NCBI GenBank assembly: GCA_035632955.1
Contig: DASQFU010000211.1
Coordinates: 14,025-78,024 of the forward strand
Origin: Candidatus Limnocylindria bacterium
Lineage (GTDB): Bacteria > Eisenbacteria > RBG-16-71-46
Direction: 5' to 3'
DNA: 64,000 nt
The notes under the pieces were generated by a model. That model was not told the DNA's origin and did not search any database. It saw only the letters and a program-made list of their open reading frames with translations. A program made the position numbers and the translations under genes. Numbering within the stretch: position 1 is the first letter of the stretch; every line of letters begins with the position of its first letter. This document shows, one piece after another, positions 13,225 to 42,230 of this stretch.

Positions 13225-13758
13225 TCATTTGAAGCTCGGTCGTGGGTAGGCGCCGCTCTGGTAGGTCGGCGCTTCGACTCCGGCTCGCTGGAGCGTGGCG
13301 TTCAGGTGGGCAATCTGGCCTTCGAGATCGTGCACGCGCTGGGCGAGCTGGGTCAGCCGGGCCGATGCCGTCCGCACCATCGCGACACCCATCTCCGGGA
13401 AATCCAGAATGGCGTCGAACAGAGTCTCGTTCGAGATGTTGAGCACGTGGGTGTGCTCGGCCGCCGCGGCGGTGAAGTGGTGCGGCTCCCCTTCCCCGAG
13501 GGCCAGCTCTCCGAACCCCTGCCCCACGATGCGGATGTCGTCCAGCGCCCGGCCCTTGTAGATCTCGACCCGGCCTTCGACGATCAGGAACGCGCCGCGG
13601 TTAGCGTCGCCCTCCTTGAACACCGTACGGCCGGCCTCGAAATGCAGCTCCCGCGAGCGGCTCGCCAGCTCCGCCAAGGCCTCGGTCGGCATGTGCGCGA
13701 ACAGTTCCGCGCTCTTCAGGATCGCGGTCTTCTCCATCAGCGTCAGCGTTTCTTCCAC
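13225..13758 (-). CDS. cyclic-nucleotide-binding-domain protein with C-terminal coiled coil (cassette copy A)
   Basis: cNMP-domain blocks LFAHMPTEALAELA...FKEGD...FLIVEGRVEIY...FGELAL. GTG 13758 aligns residue for residue with the ATG of the paralogue at 33905 (VEETLTLMEKT vs MPERMTLIEKT). Only 4 nt downstream of the TLC-HEAT stop. Confidence 0.8.
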   Translation of the reverse strand: MEETLTLMEKTAILKSAELFAHMPTEALAELASRSRELHFEAGRTVFKEGDANRGAFLIVEGRVEIYKGRALDDIRIVGQGFGELALGEGEPHHFTAAAAEHTHVLNISNETLFDAILDFPEMGVAMVRTASARLTQLAQRVHDLEGQIAHLNATLQRAGVEAPTYQSGAYPRPSFK

Positions 13759-13762
13759 GTCC

Positions 13763-16486: not shown

Positions 16487-16532
16487 AGATCGCGCGGCGG
16501 TTGCCCACGCCCACGCTCAGCGAGGCGCGACG

Positions 16533-16561
16533 TTGACTCGGATCGGTCCCCGACCGATAGT
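16533..16561 (+). promoter_or_regulatory. putative sigma70-type promoter (TTGACT-17 nt-GATAGT) just upstream of the Omp85-like gene, copy A
   Basis: TTGACT at 16533-16538, 17-nt spacer, GATAGT at 16556-16561, ATG at 16572 with no Shine-Dalgarno. The same arrangement occurs in copy B (36700-36727). Confidence 0.3.
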
Positions 16562-16571
16562 CCACGACCCC

Positions 16572-17966
16572 ATGCATCGGCTTTCCCCAGTTGCGATCGT
16601 GCTCGCGGCCTGCTTGAGTTCGACGGTCCCGGCGACACGGGCGGAATCGTTGGCGTCCCTCGACTTCACCACCGCCGCGACGCCGCCCGATTCCACCGAT
16701 GCGCCCGGCGCCAGCGCTGCCGCGCATCCGGATCACGGGGCCACGACCGCGCCGCCCTGGAATTCGCCGCACGCCGTCCCGGTCGAGCGAACCTGGGAGA
16801 CCGCGCTGCGCCTGCCCGGCCGGATCGTGTCCCTCCCGCTGCGCGCCCTCGGGTTCGTGAGCGAGCGCTTCCTCCTCCGGGTCGAGGATGCGAGCGTGGT
16901 GCCGAAGGCGGCGTACCTGTACTCGGCGTTGCCGTACGCCGGGGTCTTCGTCACCCCCGCGTCGCTCGGCGATCGAACGGGCTTCGGCGCGACGGTCCGG
17001 ATCGTTCCACCTCCGATCCGCAACCACTTGCAGGCAGAGGTGAGCGGCAGCACGCGCAACTATAGCAGCACCCGGATCGCGGCGTCCGCGGGCCCAGCAC
17101 GGCTCGCGTATCGCTACGACTGGCGGCCCCAGGAGCGGTTCTTCGGCGTCGGGCTGCGCGCCTCTTCCGATGACACGACCGCCTACGCGTGGCAGACCGA
17201 ACAGGTCCGATTCGGGCTGGAGTACCCCTGGATGCGATCGGGGCAGCCATCGCCGCGGACGCAGGTCAGCGCCTGGGTCGGTCCGCGCAGCATCGTCGTG
17301 CGCCGCGGGCGTGACCCCGACGTGGTGTCGTTCGAGCAGGAGTTCCCGGGCCTCGCCCCAGGACAGCTCGACCGGCGCTTCGAGCATCTGGTGTACGGGG
17401 GCCGCGCACAGGTGGATCGCCGCACGGGTGCGCCGCACTGGAGCCACGGCTATCGCGTCGCGCTGCAGATCGAGCGTTTCGACCAGCCGATCGAGGCGTT
17501 CGCGCTGCGCAGCGCCGCGGCCGCGAGTCCATCGTTCACGCGTAAGCGCCTCGAAGCCGAATGGGGCTTCTCGTTCATGCGTGACCCGCGCACGATTCGC
17601 CTCGGCTGGGTCGTCGTCGACCAGGACGCTGCGTCGGACTCGGTTCTGCTGCTCCCCGACCTCGCTCGCCTCGGAGGCGCGCAGGGGCTCGCCGGCTTCG
17701 AGCCCGGCCGCTTCCACCACCGTGACGCTCTGGCGATGAAGCTCAGCTACATCTTTCCGATGGCCGAACACTTCGAGTTCGACCTCCACACGGAAGTCGG
17801 TGGCGTCTATGCCGACGTCATGGAAGACCCGCGGCTCGACGATCTCGAGACCTCCTATGGCGTGGCGCTACGGCCACGCTCGAAAGAGACCGTGCTGGGC
17901 TCGATCGGCGTCGACTGGAGTCGCGAGAAGGTGCGGATTCGCTATTCGCTCGGAGGCGTCGAATGA
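16572..17966 (+). CDS. Omp85/BamA-superfamily-like outer-membrane beta-barrel without POTRA domains (cassette copy A)
   Basis: Signal peptide MHRLSPVAIVLAACLSSTVPATRA. Omp85-like block LGGAQGLAGFEPGRF (compare GG..xRGF) and alternating beta-strand C-terminus. The TTG at 16533 used by the ORF track is more likely a -35 box. Confidence 0.65.
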   Translation: MHRLSPVAIVLAACLSSTVPATRAESLASLDFTTAATPPDSTDAPGASAAAHPDHGATTAPPWNSPHAVPVERTWETALRLPGRIVSLPLRALGFVSERFLLRVEDASVVPKAAYLYSALPYAGVFVTPASLGDRTGFGATVRIVPPPIRNHLQAEVSGSTRNYSSTRIAASAGPARLAYRYDWRPQERFFGVGLRASSDDTTAYAWQTEQVRFGLEYPWMRSGQPSPRTQVSAWVGPRSIVVRRGRDPDVVSFEQEFPGLAPGQLDRRFEHLVYGGRAQVDRRTGAPHWSHGYRVALQIERFDQPIEAFALRSAAAASPSFTRKRLEAEWGFSFMRDPRTIRLGWVVVDQDAASDSVLLLPDLARLGGAQGLAGFEPGRFHHRDALAMKLSYIFPMAEHFEFDLHTEVGGVYADVMEDPRLDDLETSYGVALRPRSKETVLGSIGVDWSREKVRIRYSLGGVE

Positions 17967-19303
17967 TTCGTGCGCGGAGTCGCCTCCGGACGATCGCGTC
18001 GGTCGCCCTGCTCGCAGGCTGCGGGTGGCGGCTCGCCGCCGCGGCTCCGGAGCAGCGCGCCGAATCGCCTGAGCCCACCGACATCTCGTATTACTACGAC
18101 CTCCTCGAGCACACGGTGTTCCGCCCGGTCGCGCGAGCGCTCGATCCGTCATTGCTGGTGCGAAAGGTCACGGGGCGGCGCCGCGAGGCGTTCAACGTCG
18201 ACGAGCAGGACCAGGTCCGGCTGCCGAGCACCTGGTGGCAGCCGCGGCTGGGTTTCCAACCGCTCACGGTTGCGGACATGATTGCCGGCCTGGGACCGAC
18301 GACCGGTCCCGCCCGCGGCAAGTGGCATGTCACGCGCGCCAAGACGCAAGGCGTCACGCCCGGCTTCTTCATCAAAGACGCGACCGGGGCGCGCTTCATT
18401 CTCAAGTTCGATCCGCCGAATCAGCCCGAGATGGCGACCGGCGCGGGCGTCGTCGCGGCCTACCTGTACTGGGCCGCGGGATTCAACGTGCCGAACGACG
18501 TCATCGTCTCCTTCCGCAGCGAGGATCTGGCGATCGTCGAGGGAGCGCTCTACACCGATCCGCACGGGCACAAGAAACCGATCTCGCGGGAGTTCCTGGA
18601 GCAGATCCTTGCCCGCGTCGCGCGCAGCTCGGACGGGACGTATCGCGCGCTCGCGAGCCGGCTCCTGGCCGGCAAGCCGCTCGGACCGTTCGAATATCGC
18701 GGCCGCCGCCGTGACGACCCCGAGGATCTCATTCCGCATCAGCTCCGTCGCGAGCTGCGCGGCTTGTGGTCGATTGTCGCTTGGACCAATCACGCCGATT
18801 CCCGCGGGCCGAACTCGCTCGACGTGTGGGTCACGGACGGCGACCGCTCGTTCGTGCGTCACCATCTGATCGATTTCAACGGCTGCCTCGGATCGGGCTC
18901 GATCGCGGCGCGCTCGCCCCAGACCGGTAACGAATACTTCGTGGACTATGGCGTGATGGCGCGCTCGCTCCTGACGCTGGGCCTGCGGCGTGCGCGCTGG
19001 GAGACCACGGTCGACCCGCAGCTCCCGAGCATCGGCTTCATCGAAGCCTCGGCGTTCGACCCGGAAGGGTGGCGGCCCGACTATCCGAATCCCGCCTTCG
19101 ACGAACGAACGGAGCGCGACGTGCGGTGGGGCGTGCGGATCGTCGCCGGTTTCACGGACGAGCACATCCGCGCGGCGGTGGAGCAGGCGCAGTTCTCCGA
19201 TCCACGGGCGACCGAATACTTGACCCAGGTGCTGATCCAGCGGCGCGACATCCTCGTCCGGCGCTGGCTCATCGAGCCTCAGACCGCCACCACGACGCGT
19301 TGA
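17963..19303 (+). CDS. lipoprotein with PI3K/PI4K-like (protein-kinase-like) catalytic core (cassette copy A)
   Basis: ATGA overlap with the barrel gene. Lipobox VALLAGC. Motifs RFILKFD (Lys148), NHADSRGPNSLD (Asp279/Asn284) and HHLIDFNG (Asp304). Paralogue at 38145..39476. Confidence 0.7.
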   Translation: MIRARSRLRTIASVALLAGCGWRLAAAAPEQRAESPEPTDISYYYDLLEHTVFRPVARALDPSLLVRKVTGRRREAFNVDEQDQVRLPSTWWQPRLGFQPLTVADMIAGLGPTTGPARGKWHVTRAKTQGVTPGFFIKDATGARFILKFDPPNQPEMATGAGVVAAYLYWAAGFNVPNDVIVSFRSEDLAIVEGALYTDPHGHKKPISREFLEQILARVARSSDGTYRALASRLLAGKPLGPFEYRGRRRDDPEDLIPHQLRRELRGLWSIVAWTNHADSRGPNSLDVWVTDGDRSFVRHHLIDFNGCLGSGSIAARSPQTGNEYFVDYGVMARSLLTLGLRRARWETTVDPQLPSIGFIEASAFDPEGWRPDYPNPAFDERTERDVRWGVRIVAGFTDEHIRAAVEQAQFSDPRATEYLTQVLIQRRDILVRRWLIEPQTATTTR

Positions 19304-32715: not shown

Positions 32716-32783
32716 TGGATCTCCTGGACAGGGCGTGACGTTCGCGTCGCGCGTGGGGCCCATCGATGGGCCTCGGACGATTC

Positions 32784-33228: not shown

Positions 33229-33365
33229 GCGATGCGGTGAATCGTTCTCACGTCCGAGTCTCCGCGTGGCATTGTCGATCGGCCCGATGCGGGCGAGAAA
33301 GCACAAGAGAGGCGCCGCGACCAGGCTCGGCTTCGCCCTCCGAAGCTCGCGAGCGCCGGAAAGAT

Positions 33366-33905
33366 CTACTCGCGGCTTCCAGATCGGCGATTGGGTTCGG
33401 AGAGAGGGGATTCGGGTGTTGCGAGGCCCGATTGCTCGAGCGTCTCGCTGCATTGCTTGAGCTGGGCCTCCAGCTGCAGCACCCGCTCGGTCAGCCGATG
33501 CACCTGCAACGATTGCGCGCGCGATAGGGCGAGGCCGAAATCCGGAACATCGAGCAGCACCTCGACCACGTCGTCGCGCTGAATGTTGAGCACATGCGTC
33601 TCTTCGCGCGCGATTCCCGTGTACTGGTGCCCGGCGTTCTCCTCGAGGAAGAACTCTCCGTGCGCGGCACCCGAGCGCAGGGGTCGGACGACCGCGTCGC
33701 CTTTGCGCAGCTCCACCAGCCCGTCCACGACGATGAACGTGCCCTGGTCCTCGTCGCCTTCGCTGAACAACACTTCATCCGGGTCGGCATGAATCTCGGT
33801 CGCGCGCGCCGCGAGCTGTGCGAGGGCTTCGGTCGGAACGCTGGAGAACAGGTTCGTCGACTTGAGGAAGACCGTCTTCTCGATCAGCGTCATTCGCTCG
33901 GGCAT
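33366..33905 (-). CDS. cyclic-nucleotide-binding-domain protein with C-terminal coiled coil (cassette copy B)
   Basis: Paralogue of 13225..13758, with blocks LFSSVPTEALAQLA...FSEGDEDQGTFIVVDGLVEL. Starts 3 nt after the TLC-HEAT stop. Confidence 0.8.
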   Translation of the reverse strand: MPERMTLIEKTVFLKSTNLFSSVPTEALAQLAARATEIHADPDEVLFSEGDEDQGTFIVVDGLVELRKGDAVVRPLRSGAAHGEFFLEENAGHQYTGIAREETHVLNIQRDDVVEVLLDVPDFGLALSRAQSLQVHRLTERVLQLEAQLKQCSETLEQSGLATPESPLSEPNRRSGSRE

Positions 33906-33908
33906 GCG

Positions 33909-36626
33909 CTACCCTGCTGCGAGTGCGTTTTGGGCCCACGCGGCGGTCTCTCGCACGCGTGGATCCTCGGCTTGAAGGTTCACCTGGACGAGCTCGGCGA
34001 GCGCGCGCTCACGGCGGTACCCGACGACGTAGAGAGCGCACACGCGTAGCCAGGAATCGGTGCCGTTCAAGCATTCCTGAAGTGCCTCGGCGTAACTTGG
34101 CTCCCGCAAGCCGAAACGCTCCTGGGCGCGTGGCAACTGTTCCTCGTCCGGAGTGTCGTCGAGTAGGGGCAGCACCAACTCTCGATCCTCGGCCGACAGA
34201 GCCGTCTCCAGGTACTCGAGCGCGTTACCCCGGAGATGTGGCTTGCCCGAACCCCGGCCTCGATACGCAGCGTAGATGGTATCGGGTGGGTAGATCAGAG
34301 CGAGACGCCGGAAGACCCGATTCAACGTCTGGGCCAGTCGCTCGTCCAGGACCGCCGAGAGAAACGTTTCGGCGCTGCCTCCTTCCACGGACGTGAACGC
34401 ACGCCGCTGCAGGAACCCGAGCCAGTACGTGCGGACTTCGTATTCCAGGTCTTCTCGAACCTGTTCGCTCGGGAAAGCGATCTCCGGATTCGCGCGTCGG
34501 ATGCGATTGCAGGCCTTGAGAACGCGATACGTGAGCACCATGTCGGACCGGTCCCGGAAGCGGAACAAAGCGAGGATGGATTCGGAGGTCGGTATCTCCC
34601 GCAACACGCGCGGAATCTCCCGCCGCACCTCGATCCGGACGCCGGTATCGACGAGCAAGTCCGCGAGCGTGCCGACCACGATCTCCCCCATCGCTGCCAG
34701 GCCTGCGCGCGCCGCCCGTTCCGTCTCGGATTTTCCCAGCGCCTCGATGAGCATCGGGATGTGCTCGCGACGCTTACCGCTCGCTGCGGCCCGCAAGGCT
34801 GCATTTCGCACCTCGAGATCCGGATCGGCGAGCAGCGGCGTCAGCAGATCGTGCAATCGGCTCTGCGTCGGCGCGACAGCCAGCGCTTCCACGGCCTCGA
34901 TCCGCCGCGCGGTCGCGCCGTCCCGTAGACGCGGTTCGAGGATGTCATGCACACGCGCGTCCTCTTCCGCCGGCGCGAACTGGACCAGGCATTGAAGTGC
35001 GGTCGCGCGCAGCCGCGGATCCTGGTCGTCGAAAAACGGGTCCAACGTCCTGGTGGGCCGTCCCCGCCCCAAAGCGCAGGTCGCCCGCAGCGCACCGAGT
35101 CGAACCGCGGGATCTTCGTCGTTCAGCAACGCACGCACCTGCTCGCGCGCCGAGTCGGTCTGAAATGTGGCGATCAGCTCCAGCGCGCGACCCCTCACCC
35201 GGGCGGAGGCGTGCTCAACCAATCGTGGCAGCCGCTTCTCGAGCAGAGGCATCGCGCTGTCTTCGAGCAGATCCATGCCGTGCATCACGACCCGTTCGTA
35301 GGGACTGTCGAGCAGCCTCACCATCTCTTTGAGCAGCCGGCGCTCGCGCAGCCGAATCGTCATCTGTTCGGGGTCCACGTGCAGGCGGTTCAGGGTTCGC
35401 GATAGCTCACGCTCGTAACCGCGGCGCAGCTCGTACCAGGCCACGAGCCAGATCGCGACCACCACCACGATTAGCACCGCGATCGTCCAGGTGTCCACGC
35501 CGAAGGCGATCCCGATCCCGAGAATCATCAGCCCCGCGATGCCGTCTCCCACGCGCTCGAGTCCCGCCTCGATCACCGCTTTCGCGTGACGCCGCAGCGC
35601 CGGCTCGAGCGGGAAATAGAACAGCTCGACCGCCGCCTTGTTCAGCGACAGGCGGATGATCTGGTCCCAGAGCCGCGTGCCCAAAACCGTCAGCGCGCCC
35701 GGTGCCAGCAGCGTCGCCACGGCGCCGATCCCGAGGCCAGCCGGCAGCACCAACGAGGACGAAGAAGCGCCGAGCGTGCTCAGCGACCAGCGCGTGACGA
35801 TCATCTGCACCGCCAGTGCGCCCAGGTTCATTGCGGTGTAGAACATTCCGAAGAACTGCGCGAGCGCGGTCCTCGTCGGATAGCGATTCTGGATCTCGAC
35901 TTTGAGCTGGTAGTCGAGCACTCCGGTGATGATCACCGAGCACAGCGAGGCGATCGCGAGCCAGCGCACGTAGGACGAGCTCCAGGGAGATTGCGTTCGT
36001 TCGGGTCTGGCGGCCACGGCTTCTGCCGGTGTGTGGCCGCGACGCACGCCGGTCACGATCAGCGGAACGACGAGGGCGACCAGCAACGCCGCCGAGAACG
36101 CGAGCGCATCGAGGCCCAGCGCGGGCCCGAGGGCGCTCGCCGTCAAGCCTCCGATCAGACCGCCGAGAATCCCGCCGCCACCGATCATTCCGAAGATGCG
36201 CTTGGCGAGTCGCGGATCGGAGATGCTGTTCGTGAACGCCCAGAACTGGGAGACGAGGATGAGACCGTAGACGTTCACCCACAGGTAGAAGGCAACCGGC
36301 AGCCAGCCCCTCTCACTTCTGAAGAAAGGTGCGAAGGCCGCGAGCGACACCGAGGCGATCGCGGCCGCCGCAACCAGCGTGACCCAGGTTGGAACCCGGC
36401 GCGTGAGCTTCGCCACGACCTGGGACACGAGCAGCGTGAGGCCGCCGACGCCGAGATATACGTAGGGCAGCGATTGCGCGGGCAACCGGGAAAGGTAGAG
36501 GGAATCGCGCGCCGTCTTGACCAGCGTGTAGGAGCTGGTGATCCCGAACAGCACGAGGGCGAGCGTCAAGGCATGTCGCAGCTCGTGCGGCTCCAGCTCC
36601 AGCCGTCGAGCCAGACGTTCGATCAT
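33909..36626 (-). CDS. TLC (ATP/ADP-translocase-like) transporter domain fused to HEAT repeats (cassette copy B)
   Basis: FYLWVNVYGLILVSQFWAFTNSISDPRLAKRIFGMIG plus HEAT units DEDPAVRLGALRA, DQDPRLRATALQCL and DPDLEVRNAALRAA. Colinear with 13763..16486 over the full length. Confidence 0.8.
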   Translation of the reverse strand: MIERLARRLELEPHELRHALTLALVLFGITSSYTLVKTARDSLYLSRLPAQSLPYVYLGVGGLTLLVSQVVAKLTRRVPTWVTLVAAAAIASVSLAAFAPFFRSERGWLPVAFYLWVNVYGLILVSQFWAFTNSISDPRLAKRIFGMIGGGGILGGLIGGLTASALGPALGLDALAFSAALLVALVVPLIVTGVRRGHTPAEAVAARPERTQSPWSSSYVRWLAIASLCSVIITGVLDYQLKVEIQNRYPTRTALAQFFGMFYTAMNLGALAVQMIVTRWSLSTLGASSSSLVLPAGLGIGAVATLLAPGALTVLGTRLWDQIIRLSLNKAAVELFYFPLEPALRRHAKAVIEAGLERVGDGIAGLMILGIGIAFGVDTWTIAVLIVVVVAIWLVAWYELRRGYERELSRTLNRLHVDPEQMTIRLRERRLLKEMVRLLDSPYERVVMHGMDLLEDSAMPLLEKRLPRLVEHASARVRGRALELIATFQTDSAREQVRALLNDEDPAVRLGALRATCALGRGRPTRTLDPFFDDQDPRLRATALQCLVQFAPAEEDARVHDILEPRLRDGATARRIEAVEALAVAPTQSRLHDLLTPLLADPDLEVRNAALRAAASGKRREHIPMLIEALGKSETERAARAGLAAMGEIVVGTLADLLVDTGVRIEVRREIPRVLREIPTSESILALFRFRDRSDMVLTYRVLKACNRIRRANPEIAFPSEQVREDLEYEVRTYWLGFLQRRAFTSVEGGSAETFLSAVLDERLAQTLNRVFRRLALIYPPDTIYAAYRGRGSGKPHLRGNALEYLETALSAEDRELVLPLLDDTPDEEQLPRAQERFGLREPSYAEALQECLNGTDSWLRVCALYVVGYRRERALAELVQVNLQAEDPRVRETAAWAQNALAAG

Positions 36627-36699
36627 GACGCGCGTGCTCCCGTGCCGTAGGTCGCACCGTCATTCGCTACGGCGCGGATCGCGCTGCGGCTCGTGACCG

Positions 36700-36727
36700 T
36701 TGACAGAAAGCGACTTTAGTCTAGATT
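36700..36727 (+). promoter_or_regulatory. putative sigma70-type promoter (TTGACA-16 nt-TAGATT) abutting the Omp85-like gene, copy B
   Basis: TTGACA at 36700-36705, TAGATT at 36722-36727, GTG start at 36736 with no Shine-Dalgarno, in a locally AT-richer patch. Parallels copy A. Confidence 0.35.
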
Positions 36728-36735
36728 GAGTCGCT

Positions 36736-38148
36736 GTGCACTTCTGGAGCGCGTTTGCTGCGACGTGCGTGTGGGTCGCGCTGATGTCGATCGACGCCGG
36801 GGCGGCGGTGGAAACCGCCCCGGCGAATCCATCGTTGCTCGCGGCGGCCGACACGACACGGAACCGTACATCGGCTCCGGCGACCGAAGCCGGCGATCTC
36901 GCCGTGACTTCCGATGTCCCCTGGAATCCCCCCCGCGCGCTCTCACGCCGGCATCCATGGGAGCAGGTACTGCAATTTCCCGGGCGCATCGTGACGGTGC
37001 CGATCTCGGCGCTCGGCTACACCGTGGAGCACGGCCTGTTCTGGATGGAGAAGACGAGCTTCGTCACCAAGGCCACGTTCGCGGCGCGCGATCTGCGCGG
37101 GCGTGCCGGGCTCTCCGTCCGGCCTGCGAGCCTCGGGGATCGGACCGGCCTGGGCGGGACCATCCGCATGGACACACCCTTCTTCGGGGGCGCGCTCAAG
37201 AACCGTGTCAGCACCGAGCTCAGCGGCAGCACGCGCAAGTACAGCGGCGTGGTCGTCACCGTGAAGGGCGAGCCTGGACTTCTCGAGTACGGACAGGAGT
37301 GGCGGCCGCAGGATCGTTTCTACGGCCTCGGGATCGAATCTGTTCGTGACAGTGTCAGCGACTACGCGACCCAGAGCCAGTTCGCGCGCGCGCGCTTACG
37401 CTGGACATGGAACCAGGAGAAACGGGAGGAGCCGCGCGCGGCGTTCGCGATCTGGGCCGGGACGCGCAATGTCGTGACCCGCAACGGCCGCGGGGATGGG
37501 ACGGTTTCCTACCACGTCCGTTTTCCCGATCTCGGCGCCGCCACGCTCGATCGCCATGTCGAACACTTCATCTACGGCACCAGCCTCGCGAGCGATTGGC
37601 GGGTCGGCGAACCCCACTGGAGCCAGGGCTGGCGGGTGTGGCTTTCCGCCGAACGCTACGATCGACCGATCCATCCGCTGGCGCTGCGCGTCGGGCAACC
37701 GCGCGGCGCGCAGTTCACACGCTACGACGTCGAAGTCGAGACCGGAAAATCGTTCCTGCGCGACCCGCGCACGCTCCGGCTGCTCGTGCGGATGACGAAT
37801 CAGGAGGTCTCGTCCGGTGGCGATCGTTTCCTGATCTCCGATCTGCCCAAGCTTGGCGGGCGCGAAGGCCTGTCGGGATTCGAGGCCGGCCGATTTCACG
37901 ATCTCGATCTGTTGGCGACCAAGATCTCTTACATCTTCCCGCTGGTGGGGCGGCTCGAACTCGATGTTCACACCGAATGGGGCGCCGTCCATTCGAACGT
38001 TTGGGAAGACCTGAAGTTCAGCACGCTGAGGAACTCGTTCGGCGTCGCCCTGCGCGGGCGTCTCAAGCACACACCCTTCGGCTCGATCGGTGTGGACTTC
38101 AGTCCCGAGAAAACGCGGTTACGCTTCTCCGTGGGGAGGGTCGAGTGA
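36736..38148 (+). CDS. Omp85/BamA-superfamily-like outer-membrane beta-barrel without POTRA domains (cassette copy B)
   Basis: Paralogue of 16572..17966. Signal-like N-terminus MHFWSAFAATCVWVALMSIDAGAA, LGGREGLSGFEAGRF block, beta-strand-rich C-terminus. Confidence 0.65.
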   Translation: MHFWSAFAATCVWVALMSIDAGAAVETAPANPSLLAAADTTRNRTSAPATEAGDLAVTSDVPWNPPRALSRRHPWEQVLQFPGRIVTVPISALGYTVEHGLFWMEKTSFVTKATFAARDLRGRAGLSVRPASLGDRTGLGGTIRMDTPFFGGALKNRVSTELSGSTRKYSGVVVTVKGEPGLLEYGQEWRPQDRFYGLGIESVRDSVSDYATQSQFARARLRWTWNQEKREEPRAAFAIWAGTRNVVTRNGRGDGTVSYHVRFPDLGAATLDRHVEHFIYGTSLASDWRVGEPHWSQGWRVWLSAERYDRPIHPLALRVGQPRGAQFTRYDVEVETGKSFLRDPRTLRLLVRMTNQEVSSGGDRFLISDLPKLGGREGLSGFEAGRFHDLDLLATKISYIFPLVGRLELDVHTEWGAVHSNVWEDLKFSTLRNSFGVALRGRLKHTPFGSIGVDFSPEKTRLRFSVGRVE

Positions 38149-39476
38149 AGCCCGCGATCATTCTCGGCGCGCTGCTCGGGGCCCTCGGCTGGACCGACAC
38201 GCTCGTGGCTCAGCCGCCCTCGGGCGCAACCGAGATGCCCAGAGAACGCGACTACTCGTACATCTACGACATGCTCGACCACAGTCTCGTGCGACCCTTT
38301 ACGCGGGTGTTCGATCCCGCCCTGCTGTTGCGCAAGGTCGTGGGGCGCCCGCGCCAGGCCGCCAACGTGGGCGAAAACGATCAGGTGCGCCTCCCGAGCA
38401 CCTGGTGGCAGCCGCGGATCGGCTTTCGGCCGGTCACGGTCGAGCAAATGATGAAGGGGCCGGGATCGAGCGCCGGGCCCGCGCCGGGAAAATGGACGGT
38501 CACCAAAGCCAAGACCCAGGGCGTCACCCCCGGCTTCCAGATCGAGGACTCGAAGGGCGATAGGTTCATCATCAAGTTCGATCCCACCACGTTCCCCGAG
38601 CTCACCACTTCGGTCGACGTCATCGGCTCGCACCTGTTCTGGGCGGCCGGGTACAACGTTCCTCACAACACCATCGCCACGTTCAAAGCCGAGGATCTCG
38701 CGCTCGACAAGGATGCCACCTTTACCGACGCGCTCGGCAAGAAGCAGCCAATGACGCCGGAGTACCTGACTCAGCTCCTCGACCGGGTCGCTCGCCTGCG
38801 CGACGGCACGTACCGCTGCCTCGCGAGCAGGTTCATCTCCGGCAAGCCCCTGGGTCCGTTCGAGTACTACGGGCGGCGCAACGACGATCCCGAGGACCTG
38901 ATTCCGCACGAGCTGCGGCGCGAGCTGCGCGGGCTGTGGACCGTGTGCGCGTTCCTCAACCATGCCGACAGCCGCGGGCCCAACTCGCTCGACATGTGGG
39001 TGACCGAGAACGGCCGCTCGTTCGTGCGCCATCACCTGATCGATTTCGGCTCGATCCTCGGTTCGAGCGCCATCGGTCCGCGCTCATACGTGACCGGCAC
39101 CGAGTATTACGTGGACTTCAACGTGATTGGCCAGCAGGCGGCCACGATCGGGCTGCGGCCGTTCGACTGGGAGCGGGTCGTGGATCCGAAAATTGCCTCG
39201 ATCGGATTCGTCGAGGGGAGGGTGTTCGACCCGGCCGGCTGGCGGCCGGACTACGCGAACCCGGCATTCGACGAGCGCACCGAGCGCGACATCCGTTGGG
39301 GTGCGAAGATCGTCGCCGGTTTTACCGACGAGCACATCCGGGCCGCCGTGAAGGCCGGGAGCTACTCCGACCTGCGGGCCTCGGAGTACCTGACCCAGGT
39401 GCTGATCCAGCGCCGCGACAAGCTGGTTCGCCATTGGCTCGGGCCGGACTACCGCGTACCTTACGATACGCGATGA
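38145..39476 (+). CDS. exported protein with PI3K/PI4K-like kinase core (cassette copy B)
   Basis: GTG 38145 forms a GTGA overlap with the barrel gene stop. Signal peptide VKPAIILGALLGALGWTDTLVAQ. Motifs RFIIKFD (Lys144), NHADSRGPNSLD (Asp275/Asn280, nt 38961-38996) and HHLIDFGSILG (Asp300-Phe-Gly). Confidence 0.7.
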   Translation: MKPAIILGALLGALGWTDTLVAQPPSGATEMPRERDYSYIYDMLDHSLVRPFTRVFDPALLLRKVVGRPRQAANVGENDQVRLPSTWWQPRIGFRPVTVEQMMKGPGSSAGPAPGKWTVTKAKTQGVTPGFQIEDSKGDRFIIKFDPTTFPELTTSVDVIGSHLFWAAGYNVPHNTIATFKAEDLALDKDATFTDALGKKQPMTPEYLTQLLDRVARLRDGTYRCLASRFISGKPLGPFEYYGRRNDDPEDLIPHELRRELRGLWTVCAFLNHADSRGPNSLDMWVTENGRSFVRHHLIDFGSILGSSAIGPRSYVTGTEYYVDFNVIGQQAATIGLRPFDWERVVDPKIASIGFVEGRVFDPAGWRPDYANPAFDERTERDIRWGAKIVAGFTDEHIRAAVKAGSYSDLRASEYLTQVLIQRRDKLVRHWLGPDYRVPYDTR

Positions 39477-40861
39477 GGTCGATCGTGTGGGCGATTCCCT
39501 TCCTGCTGGCGCTGGCCGCCTCTTCGGGCTGCAGCCGCGCTCACATCGGCGTATACGAAGGGACGTTTCCTGCCCCCGGGGCGATCACCGCGTTCGACAA
39601 GCGGTGGAGCTCGTTGCCACGCGAGAGCAAGGCGGGCGCGCCTCCGTTCCTGGTTCCGGGCAGCACCAATATGGTGCGACACGACGTCGGCACGGTCGCG
39701 GTTCCGCCCGAGGCGGACAGCATCATCGTCATCGTCTATGGGGACAACCGGCCCGGCTGGCGGATGATGACGACCGCGTGGGGGCTGCCCGCGGTTCTCA
39801 ACATCGGCAGCTCCGATCCCAAGCAGTTCCTGTGGGCGATGGCGAACATCCCGGTGATGCTGGTGCAGGCGGTCGTACCACGATTCGACCTGTTCCACGA
39901 CCTGATGAGCGCCTTCTGGACGCGCCGATTCTCGGGAGGCGCCGAGCGTCGGGTCATCGAAGCGATCGAGAAGGACCTGCCCGCGAACTTCGTCGTCAAC
40001 ACGGGTGATCTGGTCGAGAACGGCCGGAGGGGCCTGCAATGGGAGGATTTCGTCCGCAAGCACGAACATCTGCGCAGGCGGGTTCCGTTTCTGGCGGCAC
40101 CGGGAAACCACGAGCGCCTGTGGTCGAAGGAGGGCCAAGCGAACTGGGATGCGGTGATGGGCCCTCCCGCCCAGCCCGATCGTTACTGGTTCGCAGTCGA
40201 CCTGCAGGAGTCGATCGCCCGCTTCGTGTTCCTCGATTCCGAGCTGCTGGCGGACCCGCGCGACCACTATCCGGACTCGCTGCAATCGGCGCTGTCGAAC
40301 GAGCAGTTGCGCTGGGCGGATTCGGCGCTCGCCGTGCCGGCGCGCTGGCGATTCGTCATCCTGCACCATCCGCTGGTCACGAGCGGGCACTACTTGTCCG
40401 ACTGGGCGTCCGACGAGTCGAGTCCGGTCGAAACCAGGCGCCGTGGGCGCCTGCTCGAGATTTGCCGGCGGAGGGGCGTGACGGCGGTGCTCGCCGGCCA
40501 CGAGCACCTCTACCAACGCACCTTCGTGCGCGGCCGGGACGGACGTGGCTTCTGGCATATCGCGACCGGCGGCGGCGGATCCCCGCTCTATCGCATCTCC
40601 GAGTACGAGCGCAAGGCGGCACTCGCCTTGACGCTGCCGGATAGCTCGGTCGTGACGTGGAACCGCGCGCGCTCGATGTACCACTATTGCCGCCTCATCA
40701 TCGTGCGACGCCCCAAACCGGGCGAGGATGCGGTGGTACTGGAGGTCAACCGTGTGCGGGACAACGGACAGATCACCCGCATCGACTTCGTGCACCTGAA
40801 CGAGCTGCCTCCGGAGGAGAAACGTGAACGCATCCCCGGGCAACCGCCCCCCGGCTTCTAG
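39473..40861 (+). CDS. lipoprotein metallophosphoesterase (calcineurin-like)
   Basis: ATGA overlap with the upstream gene. Lipobox-like LALAASSGCS. Metallophosphatase motifs VYGDNRPG, NTGDLVENG, APGNHE, ILHHP and LAGHEHLY. Confidence 0.8.
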   Translation: MRSIVWAIPFLLALAASSGCSRAHIGVYEGTFPAPGAITAFDKRWSSLPRESKAGAPPFLVPGSTNMVRHDVGTVAVPPEADSIIVIVYGDNRPGWRMMTTAWGLPAVLNIGSSDPKQFLWAMANIPVMLVQAVVPRFDLFHDLMSAFWTRRFSGGAERRVIEAIEKDLPANFVVNTGDLVENGRRGLQWEDFVRKHEHLRRRVPFLAAPGNHERLWSKEGQANWDAVMGPPAQPDRYWFAVDLQESIARFVFLDSELLADPRDHYPDSLQSALSNEQLRWADSALAVPARWRFVILHHPLVTSGHYLSDWASDESSPVETRRRGRLLEICRRRGVTAVLAGHEHLYQRTFVRGRDGRGFWHIATGGGGSPLYRISEYERKAALALTLPDSSVVTWNRARSMYHYCRLIIVRRPKPGEDAVVLEVNRVRDNGQITRIDFVHLNELPPEEKRERIPGQPPPGF

Positions 40862-42230
40862 CCGGCGCGGACTTCTGGATCGACTGCTCTCTCTGTTCGC
40901 CGACGTCCGGGGCGGCGAGGGCGCCCCCGCGCTGCTGATGATGCTCAACGTGTTCCTGCTGTTGAGCTGCTACTACATCATAAAACCGGTGCGGGAAGCG
41001 TTCATCCTGAGCGGCTCCGGCGCCGAGGTGAAGAGCTACGCCTCGGCCGCGATGGTCGTCGTGCTGGTGTTCCTGATTCCCGCCTATTCCGCCTTCGCGA
41101 GCCGCGTCAACCGGACGACGCTCCTGACGTGGGTCACGGGCTTCTTCGTCGTCAATCTGATTGCGTTCTACTTCCTGGCCCAGGCGCGGATGCCCTATCT
41201 CGACATCGTGTTCTTCGTCTGGGTCGGCATCTTCAACGTCATGATCATCGCCCAGTTCTGGTCGCTGGCGAACGACGTCTACACGCCCGACGAGGGAAAG
41301 CGGTTGTTCGCGATCATCGCTTTCGGCTCCACGATCGGCGCGATCGTCGGGGCCACGTTGGTCGAGAATCTGGTGGACCCCGAGAAGGCCGATCCCAACG
41401 CGGTCAATCGGATGCTGCTGGTCGCCGCGGGAGTCCTGGCCGTTTGCGGTGCCCTCACGCTGCTGATCAGCCGCCGCTCGAAAGTGGCGGTGTCCGAGGA
41501 GGCGAAGACATCGGCCGCCGAGCAGCCGCTCGCCTCCAAGGGAGCGTTCCGGCTCGTGCTCAGCGAGCGTTACCTGCTGCTGATCGGCCTATTGATGCTG
41601 ATCGTCAACTTCGTGAACACGACCGGGGAATACATCCTCGGCGAGACGCTCGAGAGGACCGCTAAGAGCCTGGCCGCAGCCGGGCAGACCGCGGGCCTCG
41701 CCGCCGAGGAGTTCGAGAAACAGTTCATCGGCAACTACTACGCGGGCTTCTTCAAGTGGGTGAACTGGGTCACCGCCCTGGTGCAGTTGTTCATCGTGTC
41801 GCGGTTCCTGAAATGGTTCGGCGTGAGAGCGGCGCTGTTCGTGCTGCCGCTGATCGCGCTCGGAGGCTATGCGATGCTGGCGCTCGCGCCGGTGCTGTCG
41901 GTGATTCGCGGCGTCAAGATCGCGGAAAACTCCGTGGACTACTCGCTCCAGAACACGACGCGCCAGGCGTTGTTCTTGCCGACCTCGCGCGAGGCGAAGT
42001 ACAAGGCGAAGCAGGCTACCGACACGTTCTTCTGGCGCGCCGGCGACGTGCTGTCTGCGGCGTTGGTGTTCGTCGGCAGCCAGCTCGCGCTCCCGCCGCG
42101 GGGCTTCGCGCTCGTGAACATCGTGCTCGTGCTGGCGTGGATCGTGATCGTGATCGGTCTCGCGCGCCTCCACAAGCAGCGCACCGCGGACTCCGAGGCG
42201 GTTCCAGCGACCGCCCCGGCGCGCGCCTGA
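40824..42230 (+). CDS. stand-alone TLC family (ATP/ADP-translocase-like, Npt1/Npt2-type) transporter
   Basis: CYYIIKPVREAFIL and FFVWVGIFNVMIIAQFWSLANDVYTPDEGKRLFAIIAFG hallmark blocks, about 12 TMs. The GTG 40824 start overlaps the upstream gene by 38 nt, so the start is uncertain. Confidence 0.8.
   Translation: MNASPGNRPPASSRRGLLDRLLSLFADVRGGEGAPALLMMLNVFLLLSCYYIIKPVREAFILSGSGAEVKSYASAAMVVVLVFLIPAYSAFASRVNRTTLLTWVTGFFVVNLIAFYFLAQARMPYLDIVFFVWVGIFNVMIIAQFWSLANDVYTPDEGKRLFAIIAFGSTIGAIVGATLVENLVDPEKADPNAVNRMLLVAAGVLAVCGALTLLISRRSKVAVSEEAKTSAAEQPLASKGAFRLVLSERYLLLIGLLMLIVNFVNTTGEYILGETLERTAKSLAAAGQTAGLAAEEFEKQFIGNYYAGFFKWVNWVTALVQLFIVSRFLKWFGVRAALFVLPLIALGGYAMLALAPVLSVIRGVKIAENSVDYSLQNTTRQALFLPTSREAKYKAKQATDTFFWRAGDVLSAALVFVGSQLALPPRGFALVNIVLVLAWIVIVIGLARLHKQRTADSEAVPATAPARA

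What the first reader, a model, noticed from the sequence alone, without database searches (positions are those of the whole stretch)
33366..42230. Cassette copy B is extended by a lipoprotein metallophosphoesterase and a third TLC transporter
Copy B has the same four genes (33366..33905, 33909..36626, 36736..38148, 38145..39476). Its plus-strand operon continues with start/stop overlaps into two more genes. The first is a lipoprotein calcineurin-like phosphoesterase (39473..40861, ATGA overlap). The second is a stand-alone TLC family transporter (40824..42230). The operon therefore encodes an exported kinase-like enzyme, an exported phosphoesterase and a nucleotide-exchanger homologue together. 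The periplasm normally lacks ATP, so an extracytoplasmic kinase needs a nucleotide supply. TLC proteins are the classical nucleotide antiporters. The combination suggests a reversible extracytoplasmic phosphorylation (or nucleotide-processing) system fed by TLC-mediated nucleotide export. This is inference from gene content only.
Basis: inference. Interest (0 to 1): 0.85.

Follow-up and report, generated by a model that had tools for sequence, protein, structure and literature searches.

The report
Exported kinase-like enzyme with nucleotide carriers
A soil bacterium carries a conserved, undescribed gene module that joins an outer-membrane barrel, an exported kinase-like enzyme, an exported phosphatase and ATP/ADP-carrier homologues, which suggests, but does not prove, that it feeds nucleotides into the periplasm to run phosphorylation there.

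Summary
All six genes sit at the stated coordinates with GTGA and ATGA start/stop overlaps and a 38-nt overlap. Domain content is cNMP-binding, TLC+HEAT, unknown, unknown, Metallophos and TLC.

New findings:
- The "unknown" 470-aa gene is a diverged Omp85-superfamily outer-membrane barrel.
- The 443-aa protein models at pLDDT 91.7 as a protein-kinase-like fold. The best structural matches are secreted kinases (H. pylori CtkA, Fam20C). The Gly-loop, Lys, D-x4-N and DFG residues are conserved.
- This protein belongs to a family of at least 2,572 clusters with no Pfam, NCBIfam or PDB sequence match. About 86% of members carry signal peptides or lipoboxes.
- Omp85 plus the kinase-like gene is the near-invariant core (51 of 53 loci).
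- A TLC-type carrier lies within 10 kb in 20 of 23 well-flanked loci, although gene order is shuffled. The reciprocal look-up from TLC homologues also lands beside an Omp85-type gene (4 of 4).
- The phosphatase is either the lipoprotein metallophosphoesterase or PAP2, and one member is a fusion with PAP2.

The best reading (about 0.45) is a periplasmic nucleotide-dependent phosphorylation module supplied by TLC exchangers and gated by the HEAT/cNMP proteins. Function rests on inference only. The NTT-HEAT/cNBD pair was already described. The rest appears undescribed.

The parts
33366..33905 (-). Small cytoplasmic cyclic-nucleotide-binding protein (179 aa, no signal peptide). It lies 3 nt downstream of the TLC-HEAT gene and is the presumed regulator of that carrier.
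   Evidence: Pfam cNMP_binding, E 3.1e-11. The same pairing occurs in many loci. The NTT-HEAT + cNBD operon is described in PMC5381601.
33909..36626 (-). TLC (NTT-type, MFS-fold) carrier fused to a C-terminal HEAT-repeat domain (905 aa).
   Evidence: Pfam TLC 49.8 bits (cut-off 21), HEAT_2 E 9.5e-21 and MFS_1. TIGR00769 scores only 41 bits against a cut-off of 387. It is 51% identical to copy A.
36627..36735 (.). Divergent intergenic region of 109 bp between the two transcription units. It holds one sigma-70-like site, TTGACA-16-TAGATT, at 36700-36727 (+).
   Evidence: One search found one site, and shuffles give 0.9 on average, so this is weak evidence. No Rfam family was found.
36736..38148 (+). 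Diverged Omp85-superfamily outer-membrane barrel with a signal peptide and no detectable POTRA domain (470 aa).
   Evidence: The protein itself has no Pfam hit. It aligns over its full length to the gene in the same position in L032 (E 7e-6). That gene and its L033 and L035 counterparts hit PF01103 Omp85 at E 2e-16, 3e-14 and 8e-22. An Omp85-type gene lies immediately upstream of the kinase-like gene in 51 of 53 metagenome loci.
38145..39476 (+). Exported protein-kinase-like (PKL) enzyme of an undescribed family (443 aa), with an N-terminal signal peptide.
   Evidence: The AF2 model m3423ff6ab783 has pLDDT 91.7 and pTM 0.89. Foldseek finds CtkA at E 7e-5 (prob 1.0) and Fam20C at 2e-4. Conservation in 58 sequences: K123, G126, G130, K144 and N280 at 57/58, D275 at 58/58, D300 at 57/58. 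There is no Pfam, NCBIfam or PDB sequence match. The family has 2,572 representative clusters. A signal-peptide-like N-terminus occurs in 306 of 356 members.
39473..40861 (+). Lipoprotein calcineurin-like metallophosphoesterase of the purple-acid-phosphatase type (462 aa).
   Evidence: Pfam Metallophos, E 1.3e-14. The closest solved relatives are lupin diphosphonucleotide phosphatase 3zk4 and purple acid phosphatase/TRAP 1ute. The motifs GD, GDxxE, GNHE and GHEH are readable. The lipobox Cys is conserved in the window protein and 11 of 11 other homologues.
40824..42230 (+). Stand-alone TLC/NTT-type carrier (468 aa), annotated by NCBI as an Npt1/Npt2 family nucleotide transporter.
   Evidence: Pfam TLC 51.2 bits and MFS_1. 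TIGR00769 scores 44.6 bits against a cut-off of 387. The only solved relative is 9j3n, 'ADP,ATP carrier protein 1', at E 3e-7, with the FW-x-x-AN-E/D and K-x-K-x-A-x-D motifs aligned.
13225..13761 (-). Copy A cNMP-binding protein. The exact start is uncertain; an ATG lies at about 13737.
   Evidence: Pfam cNMP_binding, E 5.4e-14. Translation.
13763..16486 (-). Copy A TLC-HEAT carrier (907 aa).
   Evidence: 51% identical to copy B over the full length. HMM hit.
16533..17966 (+). Copy A Omp85-like barrel (477 aa).
   Evidence: 44% identical to copy B.
17963..19303 (+). Copy A kinase-like protein (446 aa). No phosphoesterase or stand-alone TLC gene follows it.
   Evidence: 63% identical to copy B. 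The downstream ORFs lie on the minus strand and have no Pfam match.

Best explanation
This is one copy of a conserved envelope module.

Shown:
- Its near-invariant core is an Omp85-superfamily outer-membrane barrel followed by an exported protein with a protein-kinase-like fold and an intact set of nucleotide- and metal-binding and catalytic residues.
- In most lineages the core is genetically tied to one or two inner-membrane TLC/NTT-type carriers. One is stand-alone. The other carries a HEAT domain and is paired with a cyclic-nucleotide-binding protein or, in some lineages, a Hanks kinase.
- The core is often also tied to an exported phosphatase, either a lipoprotein metallophosphoesterase or PAP2.

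Inferred mechanism:
- The TLC carriers work as exchangers. They pass cytoplasmic nucleoside triphosphate (most simply ATP) into the periplasm and take the spent nucleotide back.
- The kinase-like enzyme is held at or near its Omp85 partner. It uses that nucleotide to phosphorylate, or otherwise nucleotide-dependently modify, an envelope substrate. The substrate could be a protein or a lipid/glycolipid.
- The lipoprotein phosphoesterase or PAP2 either removes the modification or degrades leftover nucleotide so that phosphate can be recovered.
- The HEAT domain, presumed cytoplasmic, together with the cNMP-binding protein gates the supply according to the cell's cAMP/cGMP state.

The substrate, the transported species and the direction of transport are all unknown.
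For: Gene content and overlaps.

Kinase-like fold and catalytic residues:
- AF2 pLDDT 91.7.
- Foldseek hits are all kinases, led by the secreted kinases CtkA and Fam20C.
- K144, D275, N280 and D300 are conserved in 57-58 of 58 diverse members.

Export:
- 306 of 356 family members have a signal-peptide-like N-terminus, and 99 have a lipobox.
- The phosphoesterase lipobox Cys is conserved.
- The barrel homologues hit PF01103 Omp85.

Linkage:
- The order barrel, kinase-like, phosphoesterase, TLC recurs in most of 30 Eisenbacteria loci.
- An Omp85-type gene is adjacent upstream in 51 of 53 diverse metagenome loci that were retrieved by kinase-like patterns only.
- A TLC-type gene is present in 20 of 23 loci with at least 8 kb on each side, and lies within 3 kb in 17 of them.
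- Gene order is shuffled between lineages, with TLC before the barrel, after the kinase, or in an upstream TLC/TLC-HEAT/cNMP block. Shuffling with retained linkage argues for selection on linkage rather than inherited synteny.
- In a 457-kb contig of a distant lineage, all seven genes (PAP2, Omp85, kinase-like, Metallophos, TLC, TLC-HEAT, cNMP) lie on one strand.
- Reciprocal test: four TLC homologues at 56-62% identity all sit next to an Omp85-type gene, and two of them reproduce the whole copy-B layout.
- A kinase-like + PAP2 fusion protein exists (P0123), and PAP2 genes flank the pair in several loci.

From established knowledge:
- Characterised NTTs are nucleotide exchangers whose direction follows the gradients.
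- PAP2 enzymes have extracytoplasmic active sites.
- TRAP-type purple acid phosphatases dephosphorylate Fam20C substrates.
Against: - No activity, localisation or transcript data exist.
- The TLC proteins score far below the NCBIfam cut-off for characterised NTP/NDP exchangers (45 against 387 bits). The family also contains non-nucleotide (SAM) and NAD carriers, so the substrate is open.
- ATP in the periplasm would leak through general porins, which would make such a system costly.
- Some loci have the barrel-kinase pair with no TLC within 8-10 kb (L039, L043, L065; L033, L034). The phosphatase is frequently absent.
- Copy A in this same window lacks the stand-alone TLC and the phosphoesterase.
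- TLC-HEAT/cNBD operons are described in cyanobacteria and chlamydiae (PMC5381601). This study did not look for the kinase-like gene next to them, so the carrier is not known to be exclusive to this module.
- Structural matches have low TM-scores (0.35-0.58), so the fold class is secure but the chemistry is not. PKL folds also perform AMPylation and glutamylation.
- A dedicated Omp85 partner could mean the enzyme is exported to the cell surface, beyond the reach of an inner-membrane carrier.
Confidence: 0.45

Rival explanations
1. Two-partner-type export. The Omp85 barrel is a dedicated translocator that puts the kinase-like protein on the cell surface or releases it. There it acts as an ecto-kinase or effector on external targets, like H. 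pylori CtkA. The TLC carriers are linked for another reason, for example importing nucleotides or sensing.
For: - The Omp85-type gene is immediately upstream and often overlaps the kinase-like gene in 51 of 53 loci. This is the classic layout of transporter-plus-cargo pairs.
- The top structural match, CtkA, is a secreted kinase.
- Some loci have only the pair.
Against: - Pfam finds no TPS domain in the kinase-like protein and no POTRA or ShlB match in the barrel.
- About 28% of family members are lipoproteins.
- This reading leaves the tight TLC linkage unexplained (20 of 23 loci; reciprocal 4 of 4).
- It also leaves unexplained the linkage to periplasm-facing phosphatases.
Confidence: 0.2
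2. Phosphotransfer without imported ATP, or other chemistry on envelope lipids. The kinase-like enzyme uses a non-nucleotide donor, as LpxT uses undecaprenyl pyrophosphate, or catalyses another PKL-fold reaction on a lipid or glycolipid together with PAP2 or the phosphoesterase. The TLC/MFS proteins move a non-nucleotide substrate such as a lipid head-group precursor.
For: - A kinase-like + PAP2 fusion exists, and PAP2 genes are neighbours.
- A YegS/DAGK-type lipid kinase gene lies upstream in one Eisenbacteria subclade.
- The TLC proteins are far from characterised NTTs.
- PI3K-type lipid kinases are among the structural matches.
Against: - The Gly-rich loop, beta3 Lys, D-x4-N and DFG residues that bind nucleotide and metal in kinases are almost invariant.
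- The TLC signature motifs shared with a solved ADP/ATP carrier are retained.
- No lipid-transport precedent is known to me for TLC proteins.
Confidence: 0.15
3. Nucleotide or organophosphate scavenging. The exported phosphoesterase or PAP2 breaks down external nucleic-acid or nucleotide material. The TLC carriers import nucleotides into the cell, as they do in parasites. The kinase-like protein is an accessory binding or salvage factor.
For: - The phosphoesterase's nearest solved relative is a diphosphonucleotide phosphatase/phosphodiesterase.
- Characterised NTTs are importers (PMC5381601).
- A PiT phosphate transporter gene follows the module in six Eisenbacteria loci.
Against: - The phosphatase is the least conserved part of the module, while the kinase-like enzyme and barrel are the most conserved.
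- A catalytically intact kinase-like enzyme has no obvious role in hydrolytic scavenging.
- An Omp85 barrel is not a known nutrient channel.
- No substrate-binding or TonB-type uptake genes are consistently linked.
Confidence: 0.12
4. There is no functional unit. The genes are neighbours through inherited synteny in one uncultured phylum.
For: Most close relatives come from one candidate phylum, Eisenbacteria. MatE and oxidoreductase genes are also syntenic there without an obvious functional link.
Against: - Linkage persists in distant lineages at 35-45% identity with rearranged gene order.
- Start/stop overlaps are present.
- A fusion protein exists.
- The reciprocal look-ups lead back to an Omp85-type gene.
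Confidence: 0.03

Closest known systems
NTT-HEAT carrier followed by a cyclic-nucleotide-binding gene (Major, Embley & Williams 2017, Genome Biol Evol, PMC5381601)
   Same: The genes 33909-36626 and 33366-33905 (and copy A) match the described layout exactly. A TLC/NTT domain is fused to C-terminal HEAT repeats, and a cNBD gene follows a few nucleotides downstream. The function was unknown in that paper too.
   Different: The passages of that paper that were read (a term search) do not mention any linked Omp85, kinase-like, phosphoesterase or second TLC gene. Here the pair is part of a larger conserved module. In some lineages a Hanks kinase takes the place of the cNBD gene.
Eukaryotic secretory-pathway phosphorylation: Fam20C-type lumenal kinases, a lumenal ATP/ADP exchanger, and TRAP/purple acid phosphatase (own knowledge)
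   Same: The logic is the same. A signal-peptide-bearing kinase-fold enzyme works in a compartment that makes no ATP, together with a membrane nucleotide exchanger and a purple-acid-phosphatase-type enzyme. Fam20C is among the best structural matches (E 2e-4). TRAP (1ute) is among the phosphoesterase's nearest solved relatives.
   Different: There is no sequence-level membership in Fam20. The carrier family is different (TLC/MFS rather than SLC35). The compartment is a bacterial periplasm with a leaky outer membrane. An Omp85 partner has no counterpart in the eukaryotic system. This is an analogy, not homology of the system.
Helicobacter pylori CtkA (JHP0940), a secreted HipA-like Ser/Thr kinase (PDB 3akj/3akk/3akl)
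   Same: It is the best structural match (E 7e-5, prob 1.0, TM 0.58 on the target). It is a bacterial kinase that leaves the cytoplasm.
   Different: Identity is only 10%, with no sequence-profile match. The window protein is larger, with an extra N-terminal helical region and a C-terminal helical domain. CtkA has no known Omp85, TLC or phosphatase partners.
Omp85 partner systems: two-partner secretion (FhaC/FHA), TamA/TamB, BamA
   Same: An Omp85-superfamily barrel is encoded directly upstream of, and overlapping, a specific exported partner protein.
   Different: No POTRA or ShlB domain is detectable in the barrel, and there is no TPS domain in the partner. The barrel is short (about 390-470 aa). 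The partner is an enzyme of kinase fold, not a beta-helical exoprotein or a TamB-like protein.
LpxT/PAP2-type periplasmic phosphotransfer on lipid A (own knowledge)
   Same: It is a known way to add phosphate to an envelope molecule on the periplasmic side. PAP2 genes and a PAP2 fusion accompany the kinase-like family.
   Different: LpxT needs no ATP and no kinase-fold enzyme. In this window the phosphatase is a Metallophos lipoprotein, not PAP2.

Membership tests
Protein-kinase-like (PKL) superfamily (38145-39476) | Bilobal kinase fold | tested here: met
   The AF2 model has pLDDT 91.7 and pTM 0.89. All top Foldseek PDB matches are kinases: CtkA at E 7e-5, Fam20C at 2e-4, then PINK1, HipT and PI3KC3. 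TM-scores are modest (0.35-0.58).
Protein-kinase-like (PKL) superfamily (38145-39476) | Gly-rich loop, beta3 Lys, catalytic D-x4-N and metal-binding DFG Asp are conserved | tested here: met
   Conservation in 58 sequences: K123, G126 and G130 at 57/58; K144 at 57/58; D275 at 58/58; N280 at 57/58; D300 at 57/58; F301 at 55/58. K144 ends strand 140-144, and D275/N280 follow helix 259-271 in the model.
Protein-kinase-like (PKL) superfamily (38145-39476) | Sequence-profile membership in a described kinase family (Pkinase, HipA_C, Fam20C, CotH, APH, PI3_PI4 and others) | tested here: not met
   No Pfam or NCBIfam hit at E <= 0.01. No PDB sequence hit with the single sequence or with the family profile.
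Protein-kinase-like (PKL) superfamily (38145-39476) | Nucleotide-dependent phosphotransfer activity | not testable with these tools
   This needs purified protein and K144/D275/D300 mutants.
TLC / NTT nucleotide transporters (PF03219; TC 2.A.12) | Match to the TLC profile above Pfam's gathering score | tested here: met
   40824-42230 scores 51.2 bits and 33909-36626 scores 49.8 bits, against a cut-off of 21. The motifs aligned with solved ADP/ATP carrier 9j3n are shown.
TLC / NTT nucleotide transporters (PF03219; TC 2.A.12) | Membership of the characterised NTP/NDP exchanger group (TIGR00769 cut-off) | tested here: not met
   44.6 and 41.3 bits against a cut-off of 387.2. These are divergent TLC proteins from the uncharacterised part of the family.
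TLC / NTT nucleotide transporters (PF03219; TC 2.A.12) | Transport of nucleotides, and its direction | not testable with these tools
   This needs uptake and exchange assays with labelled ATP, ADP, NAD and other nucleotides.
NTT-HEAT + cNBD operon (Major et al. 2017) | TLC domain with C-terminal HEAT repeats and a cNMP-binding gene a few nucleotides downstream | tested here: met
   One search gives the domains. The gap is 3 nt in copy B (33905/33909). The description is in PMC5381601.
Omp85 superfamily (36736-38148) | Match to PF01103 | tested here: inconclusive
   The window protein and its copy-A paralogue give no hit even at E <= 10. The window protein aligns over its full length with the L032 gene at the same position (E 7e-6, 21% identity). 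That gene and other positional counterparts hit PF01103 at E 2e-16 to 8e-22. An HMM built from these genes recovers both window copies.
Omp85 superfamily (36736-38148) | 16-stranded barrel and N-terminal POTRA domain(s) | not tested
Pfam shows no POTRA match in the window protein or its homologues.
Two-partner secretion (TpsB/TpsA) | ShlB/FhaC-type transporter with POTRA domains, and cargo with an N-terminal TPS (haemagglutination activity) domain | tested here: not met
   No ShlB, POTRA or TPS Pfam match in 36736-38148 or 38145-39476.
Calcineurin-like metallophosphoesterase (39473-40861) | PF00149 match, metal-binding motifs and an export signal | tested here: met
   55.5 bits against a cut-off of 21.5. 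The motifs YGDN, TGDLVE, GNHE, ILHH and GHEH are readable. The lipobox Cys is conserved in homologues.
Anti-phage defence systems (PADLOC; Pycsar-like) | Core proteins match defence-system models | tested here: not met
   Only the generic cNMP-binding and HEAT domains give weak hits. There is nothing for the barrel, kinase-like, phosphoesterase or TLC proteins.

The most novel reading that the evidence does not exclude
Some free-living diderm bacteria (Eisenbacteria, Marinimicrobia, Zixibacteria, Latescibacteria, Acidobacteriota relatives) deliberately run a nucleotide economy in the periplasm. In this reading, TLC/NTT exchangers operate in the direction opposite to that known from parasites and plastids. 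They export ATP and retrieve ADP under cNMP or Ser/Thr-kinase control. This powers a dedicated exported kinase that is docked to an Omp85 barrel and phosphorylates outer-membrane or surface components, with a lipoprotein phosphatase closing the cycle. This would be a bacterial counterpart of Fam20C-type secretory-pathway phosphorylation. It would also give the first physiological role for NTT proteins in free-living bacteria.
Probability: 0.4. Interest if true: 0.9.

Novelty: categorically new. Interest (0 to 1): 0.78.

Why it matters
Textbooks treat the periplasm as free of ATP and of ATP-dependent enzymes. Since 2017 it has also been an open question what NTT/TLC "energy parasite" carriers do in free-living bacteria.

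This module gives both questions a concrete, testable handle:
- a defined set of 4-7 genes;
- a large exported kinase-fold family (at least 2,572 clusters) with no annotation;
- a dedicated Omp85 partner;
- carrier genes that can be assayed in E. coli by established NTT methods.

If the inferred mechanism holds, it would reveal a new way of modifying the Gram-negative envelope and a new function for Omp85 proteins. If it does not hold, the tight Omp85/kinase-like pairing is still an undescribed and widespread outer-membrane system.

Tried and rejected
- The first AF2 run used a shallow alignment of 32 close sequences and gave pLDDT 66. It was replaced by a 58-sequence diverse alignment.
- PDB sequence searches for the kinase-like protein, with a single sequence and with a profile, found nothing real. 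The armadillo-repeat hits are summed sub-threshold repeats.
- The search for related loci with the 37-sequence alignment failed because no conserved stretch was found. It was redone with 12 sequences.
- My local phosphoesterase HMM picked up off-frame 'shadow' ORFs inside the conserved kinase-like gene. These were filtered by position before counting.
- The count of 18 of 28 adjacent barrels in the high-GC Eisenbacteria loci is an undercount caused by over-long ORF calls. tblastn shows the barrel upstream in nearly all of them.
- A BLAST cluster suggested a Hanks kinase next to copy A in the window. Pfam shows that the real gene there is a pyridine-nucleotide-disulphide oxidoreductase on the other strand. 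The kinase adjacency is therefore claimed only for L081, L116 and L118 (Pfam-verified) and for ORFs at the same position in L082, L090, L091, L104, L109 and L111.
- The cyclic beta-1,2-glucan-synthase-like giant gene between the two cassettes was tested as a possible substrate clue. It is not linked to the module in any other locus.
- The N-terminal domain of the 856-aa Omp85 protein of L116/L118 was tested for homology to the kinase-like family. The result was not significant.
- Rfam found no riboswitch or other RNA family in 33000-42800.
- PADLOC gave no match to a defence system.
- Literature searches for periplasmic ATP, Omp85 plus kinase-like, NTT-HEAT, NTT structures and ATP/ADP translocase export found no description of this module.
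- I could not evaluate nucleotide-binding residues of the TLC proteins against the solved NTT structure, because no paper on that structure was found.

Full report
**1. Observation**

The window is high-GC (about 67%). It comes from a metagenome-assembled genome contig that NCBI labels 'Candidatus Limnocylindria bacterium'.

Pfam gives:
- 33366-33905(-): cNMP_binding.
- 33909-36626(-): TLC plus HEAT repeats.
- 36736-38148(+) and 38145-39476(+): nothing.
- 39473-40861(+): Metallophos.
- 40824-42230(+): TLC plus MFS_1.

NCBIfam adds only weak matches.

The junctions are as described:
- GTGA at 38145-38148.
- ATGA at 39473-39476.
- A GTG start at 40824 behind a GGAGGAG Shine-Dalgarno sequence, overlapping the phosphoesterase gene by 38 nt.

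No terminator-like site lies on the plus strand inside 36736-42230.

Copy A (13225-19303) has the same four genes at 51%, 44% and 63% identity for the carrier, barrel and kinase-like proteins. No phosphoesterase or stand-alone TLC follows it. The two copies are old paralogues, not a recent duplication.

**2. What the two 'unknown' genes are**

*The kinase-like protein.*
- The 443-aa protein has no Pfam, NCBIfam or PDB sequence relative.
- It belongs to a large family. There are 1,022 hits in the word-indexed search, all named 'hypothetical protein'. There are 2,572 representative clusters at E <= 1e-3 in the exhaustive search.
- A first AlphaFold model from a shallow alignment was mediocre (pLDDT 66). 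A 58-sequence diverse alignment gave pLDDT 91.7 and pTM 0.89.
- Foldseek against the PDB returns only kinases. These are H. pylori secreted kinase CtkA (E 7e-5, prob 1.0), the Golgi casein kinase Fam20C (2e-4), PINK1, HipT/HipA and PI3KC3. TM-scores are modest, so this is a divergent kinase fold with extra elements.
- The residues that define an active kinase are nearly invariant over 58 members at 33-68% identity. These are the Gly-rich loop (K123, G126, G130), the beta3 lysine K144, the catalytic loop H273-x-D275-x4-N280, and D300-F-G.

*The barrel.*
- The 470-aa protein gives no Pfam hit itself.
- The gene at the same position in distant relatives hits PF01103 Omp85 (E 2e-16 to 8e-22).
- The window protein aligns with one of these over its full length (E 7e-6).
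- It is a diverged Omp85-superfamily outer-membrane barrel with a signal peptide and no detectable POTRA domain.

**3. Export**

- The phosphoesterase has ...LALAASSGC in the window. All 11 other homologues inspected have a lipoprotein signal with a Cys.
- The phosphoesterase's metal-binding motifs are intact. Its nearest solved relatives are a plant diphosphonucleotide phosphatase and purple acid phosphatases/TRAP.
- The cNMP-binding protein has no signal peptide.
- HEAT tails of MFS-type carriers are expected to be cytoplasmic. This is an inference from general MFS topology.

**4. Co-conservation**

*Close relatives.* In 30 genome loci found with the kinase-like protein, nearly all Candidatus Eisenbacteria, tblastn shows the order barrel, kinase-like, phosphoesterase, TLC in most. 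TLC-HEAT/cNMP lies either divergently upstream, as in the window, or co-directionally downstream.

*Distant members.* These are about 560 aa, with an extra C-terminal domain. They were looked up with Pfam-annotated neighbours:
- A 457-kb contig carries PAP2, Omp85, kinase-like, Metallophos, TLC, TLC-HEAT and cNMP_binding on one strand.
- A Marinimicrobia contig has Omp85, kinase-like and Metallophos.
- Bryobacterales and Latescibacteria contigs have only Omp85 and kinase-like.

- The Omp85-type gene is adjacent upstream in 51 of 53 loci with enough upstream sequence.
- Fourteen of 17 loci with at least 4 kb on both sides contain a TLC-type gene.
- Pooling these with the genome loci, 20 of 23 loci with at least 8 kb on both sides have a TLC-type gene, and in 17 the nearest one lies within 3 kb.
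- Gene order differs between lineages. TLC can come before the barrel or directly after the kinase-like gene. A TLC/TLC-HEAT/cNMP block can lie upstream. PAP2 can replace Metallophos.
- One family member is a kinase-like + PAP2 fusion.

*Reciprocal test.* Four homologues of the stand-alone TLC (56-62% identity) were looked up. All four sit beside an Omp85-type gene, and two reproduce the six-gene layout of copy B.

The linkage of the kinase-like enzyme, the barrel and TLC carriers is a real, selected feature.

**5. Mechanism**

*Shown:*
- gene content;
- fold and conserved catalytic residues;
- export signals;
- linkage.

*Inferred:*
- The TLC proteins act as exchangers that deliver cytoplasmic NTP to the periplasm and return the spent nucleotide.
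- The kinase-like enzyme, associated with its Omp85 partner, uses it on an envelope substrate.
- The lipoprotein phosphoesterase or PAP2 reverses the modification or recycles nucleotide and phosphate.
- The HEAT domain plus the cNMP-binding protein (or a Hanks kinase in some lineages) gates supply.

I put this at about 0.45.

*Points against:*
- The TLC proteins are far from characterised NTTs (45 against 387 bits).
- Periplasmic ATP would leak through porins.
- Some loci lack TLC or a phosphatase nearby.
- Copy A lacks both the phosphoesterase and the stand-alone TLC.
- NTT-HEAT/cNBD operons are described in other phyla. This study did not look for the kinase-like gene next to them.

*Rivals:*
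- (a) A two-partner-type export pair that places an ecto-kinase or effector outside the cell (0.2).
- (b) Lipid-directed chemistry with a non-nucleotide donor, with TLC carrying something else (0.15).
- (c) Nucleotide or organophosphate scavenging with TLC as importer (0.12).
- (d) Mere synteny (0.03).

**6. Comparison with what is known**

- The TLC-HEAT gene followed by a cNBD gene is the NTT-HEAT/cNBD operon of Major, Embley and Williams 2017 (PMC5381601). Its function was unknown then.
- The kinase-like protein is a member of the PKL superfamily by fold and motifs, but of no described family.
- The barrel belongs to the Omp85 superfamily by transitive homology. It fails the tests for TpsB/TpsA two-partner secretion, having no POTRA, ShlB or TPS domains.
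- The closest functional analogy is eukaryotic secretory-pathway phosphorylation, with Fam20C, a lumenal ATP/ADP exchanger and TRAP. That analogy rests on my own knowledge and is not homology of the system.
- PADLOC gives no defence-system membership and Rfam finds no RNA element.
- Five literature searches found no description of the module.

**7. Verdict**

The finding is real and the gene-content inference survives testing.

The parts are members of known superfamilies. I found no described counterpart for the combination of an Omp85 barrel, an exported kinase-fold enzyme of an unannotated family, and TLC carriers with cytoplasmic regulators. I therefore rate the system as categorically new, with the caveat that its function is inferred.

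Interest is 0.78. The idea contradicts the standard view of an ATP-free periplasm. It offers a role for NTTs in free-living bacteria and is directly testable with existing assays.

Noticed in passing
window 22104-30695 (-): A 2,863-aa ORF lies between cassette copies A and B. It has two GH94 domains (supersandwich and catalytic, E 2e-147 and 1e-122) and a glucoamylase-like domain, which is the architecture of cyclic beta-1,2-glucan synthases that make periplasmic glucans. It is not linked to the module in any other locus examined.
   Followed up: partly
whole window; NCBI labels the source genome 'Candidatus Limnocylindria' (Chloroflexota). All close relatives of the cassette genes come from Candidatus Eisenbacteria genomes, and the contig encodes Omp85- and OmpA-type outer-membrane proteins. 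The bin label may be wrong. Several related contigs also carry odd labels (Saccharimonadaceae, Verrucomicrobiia, Rokuibacteriota).
   Followed up: no
window 42578-44101 (+): The next gene lies 347 nt after the TLC gene. It is an outer-membrane protein with an N-terminal OMP beta-barrel, thrombospondin type 3 (calcium-binding) repeats and a C-terminal OmpA domain. It is present in the identical Logan contig, but only weak partial matches to it occur in other loci.
   Followed up: partly
P0123 (782 aa); L031, L032, L039, L071, L074, L075, L089: One family member is a fusion of the kinase-like domain with a C-terminal membrane PAP2 phosphatase domain. Separate PAP2 genes lie directly before the barrel or after the kinase-like gene in several distant loci. 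This hints at a lipid-phosphate substrate.
   Followed up: partly
L116 9377-11947 and L118 9343-11928: A variant module runs TLC, an 856-861-aa protein, a Hanks Ser/Thr kinase, then TLC-HEAT. The C-terminal third of the 856-861-aa protein is an Omp85 barrel. Its N-terminal ~500 aa is an unknown domain carrying a GDWDRHRGQW motif reminiscent of PI3K/HipA catalytic loops. Homology of that N-domain to the kinase-like family was not significant.
   Followed up: partly
L081 11446-13047; same position in L082, L090, L091, L104, L109, L111: In one lineage a Hanks-type Ser/Thr kinase gene lies between the kinase-like gene and the TLC-HEAT gene, apparently in place of the cNMP-binding gene. Its kinase domain occupies residues ~223-492, after a 220-aa unknown N-terminal region. 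In five of the seven loci it starts at the stop of the kinase-like gene. In L090 it overlaps that gene's 3' end. In L111 a stand-alone TLC gene lies between the two. Only L081 was verified with Pfam.
   Followed up: partly
L006, L007, L009, L010, L027, L030 (about 18.3-19.5 kb; 11.0-12.0 kb in L027); L002, L003, L005, L008, L009, L030 upstream of the barrel: In one Eisenbacteria subclade a PiT/PHO4 phosphate transporter gene follows the cNMP gene (six loci). A YegS/DAGK-type lipid kinase gene precedes the barrel in six loci, and L009 and L030 have both. This could be synteny, or it could bear on phosphate recycling or a lipid substrate.
   Followed up: no
window 36700-36727 (+): The only sigma-70-like site in the region (TTGACA-16-TAGATT) ends 8 nt before the annotated GTG start of the barrel gene at 36736. 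Either the transcript is leaderless or the true start lies further downstream. The site count is no higher than in shuffled sequence.
   Followed up: no
P0124, P0135, P0271-P0336 and other ~560-aa members: Outside Eisenbacteria the kinase-like proteins carry an extra C-terminal domain of about 120 aa with no Pfam match. The Eisenbacteria proteins, including both window copies, lack it.
   Followed up: no
window 49011-55727 (-) and 32407-33453 (-): A 2,238-aa ORF whose only Pfam match is a glutamate-synthase conserved region overlaps two long plus-strand ORFs, so it may be an over-extended call. The 348-aa ORF at 32407-33453(-), whose 5' end overlaps the 3' end of the cNMP gene by 88 nt on the same strand, has a C-terminal DUF1330 domain.
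   Followed up: no
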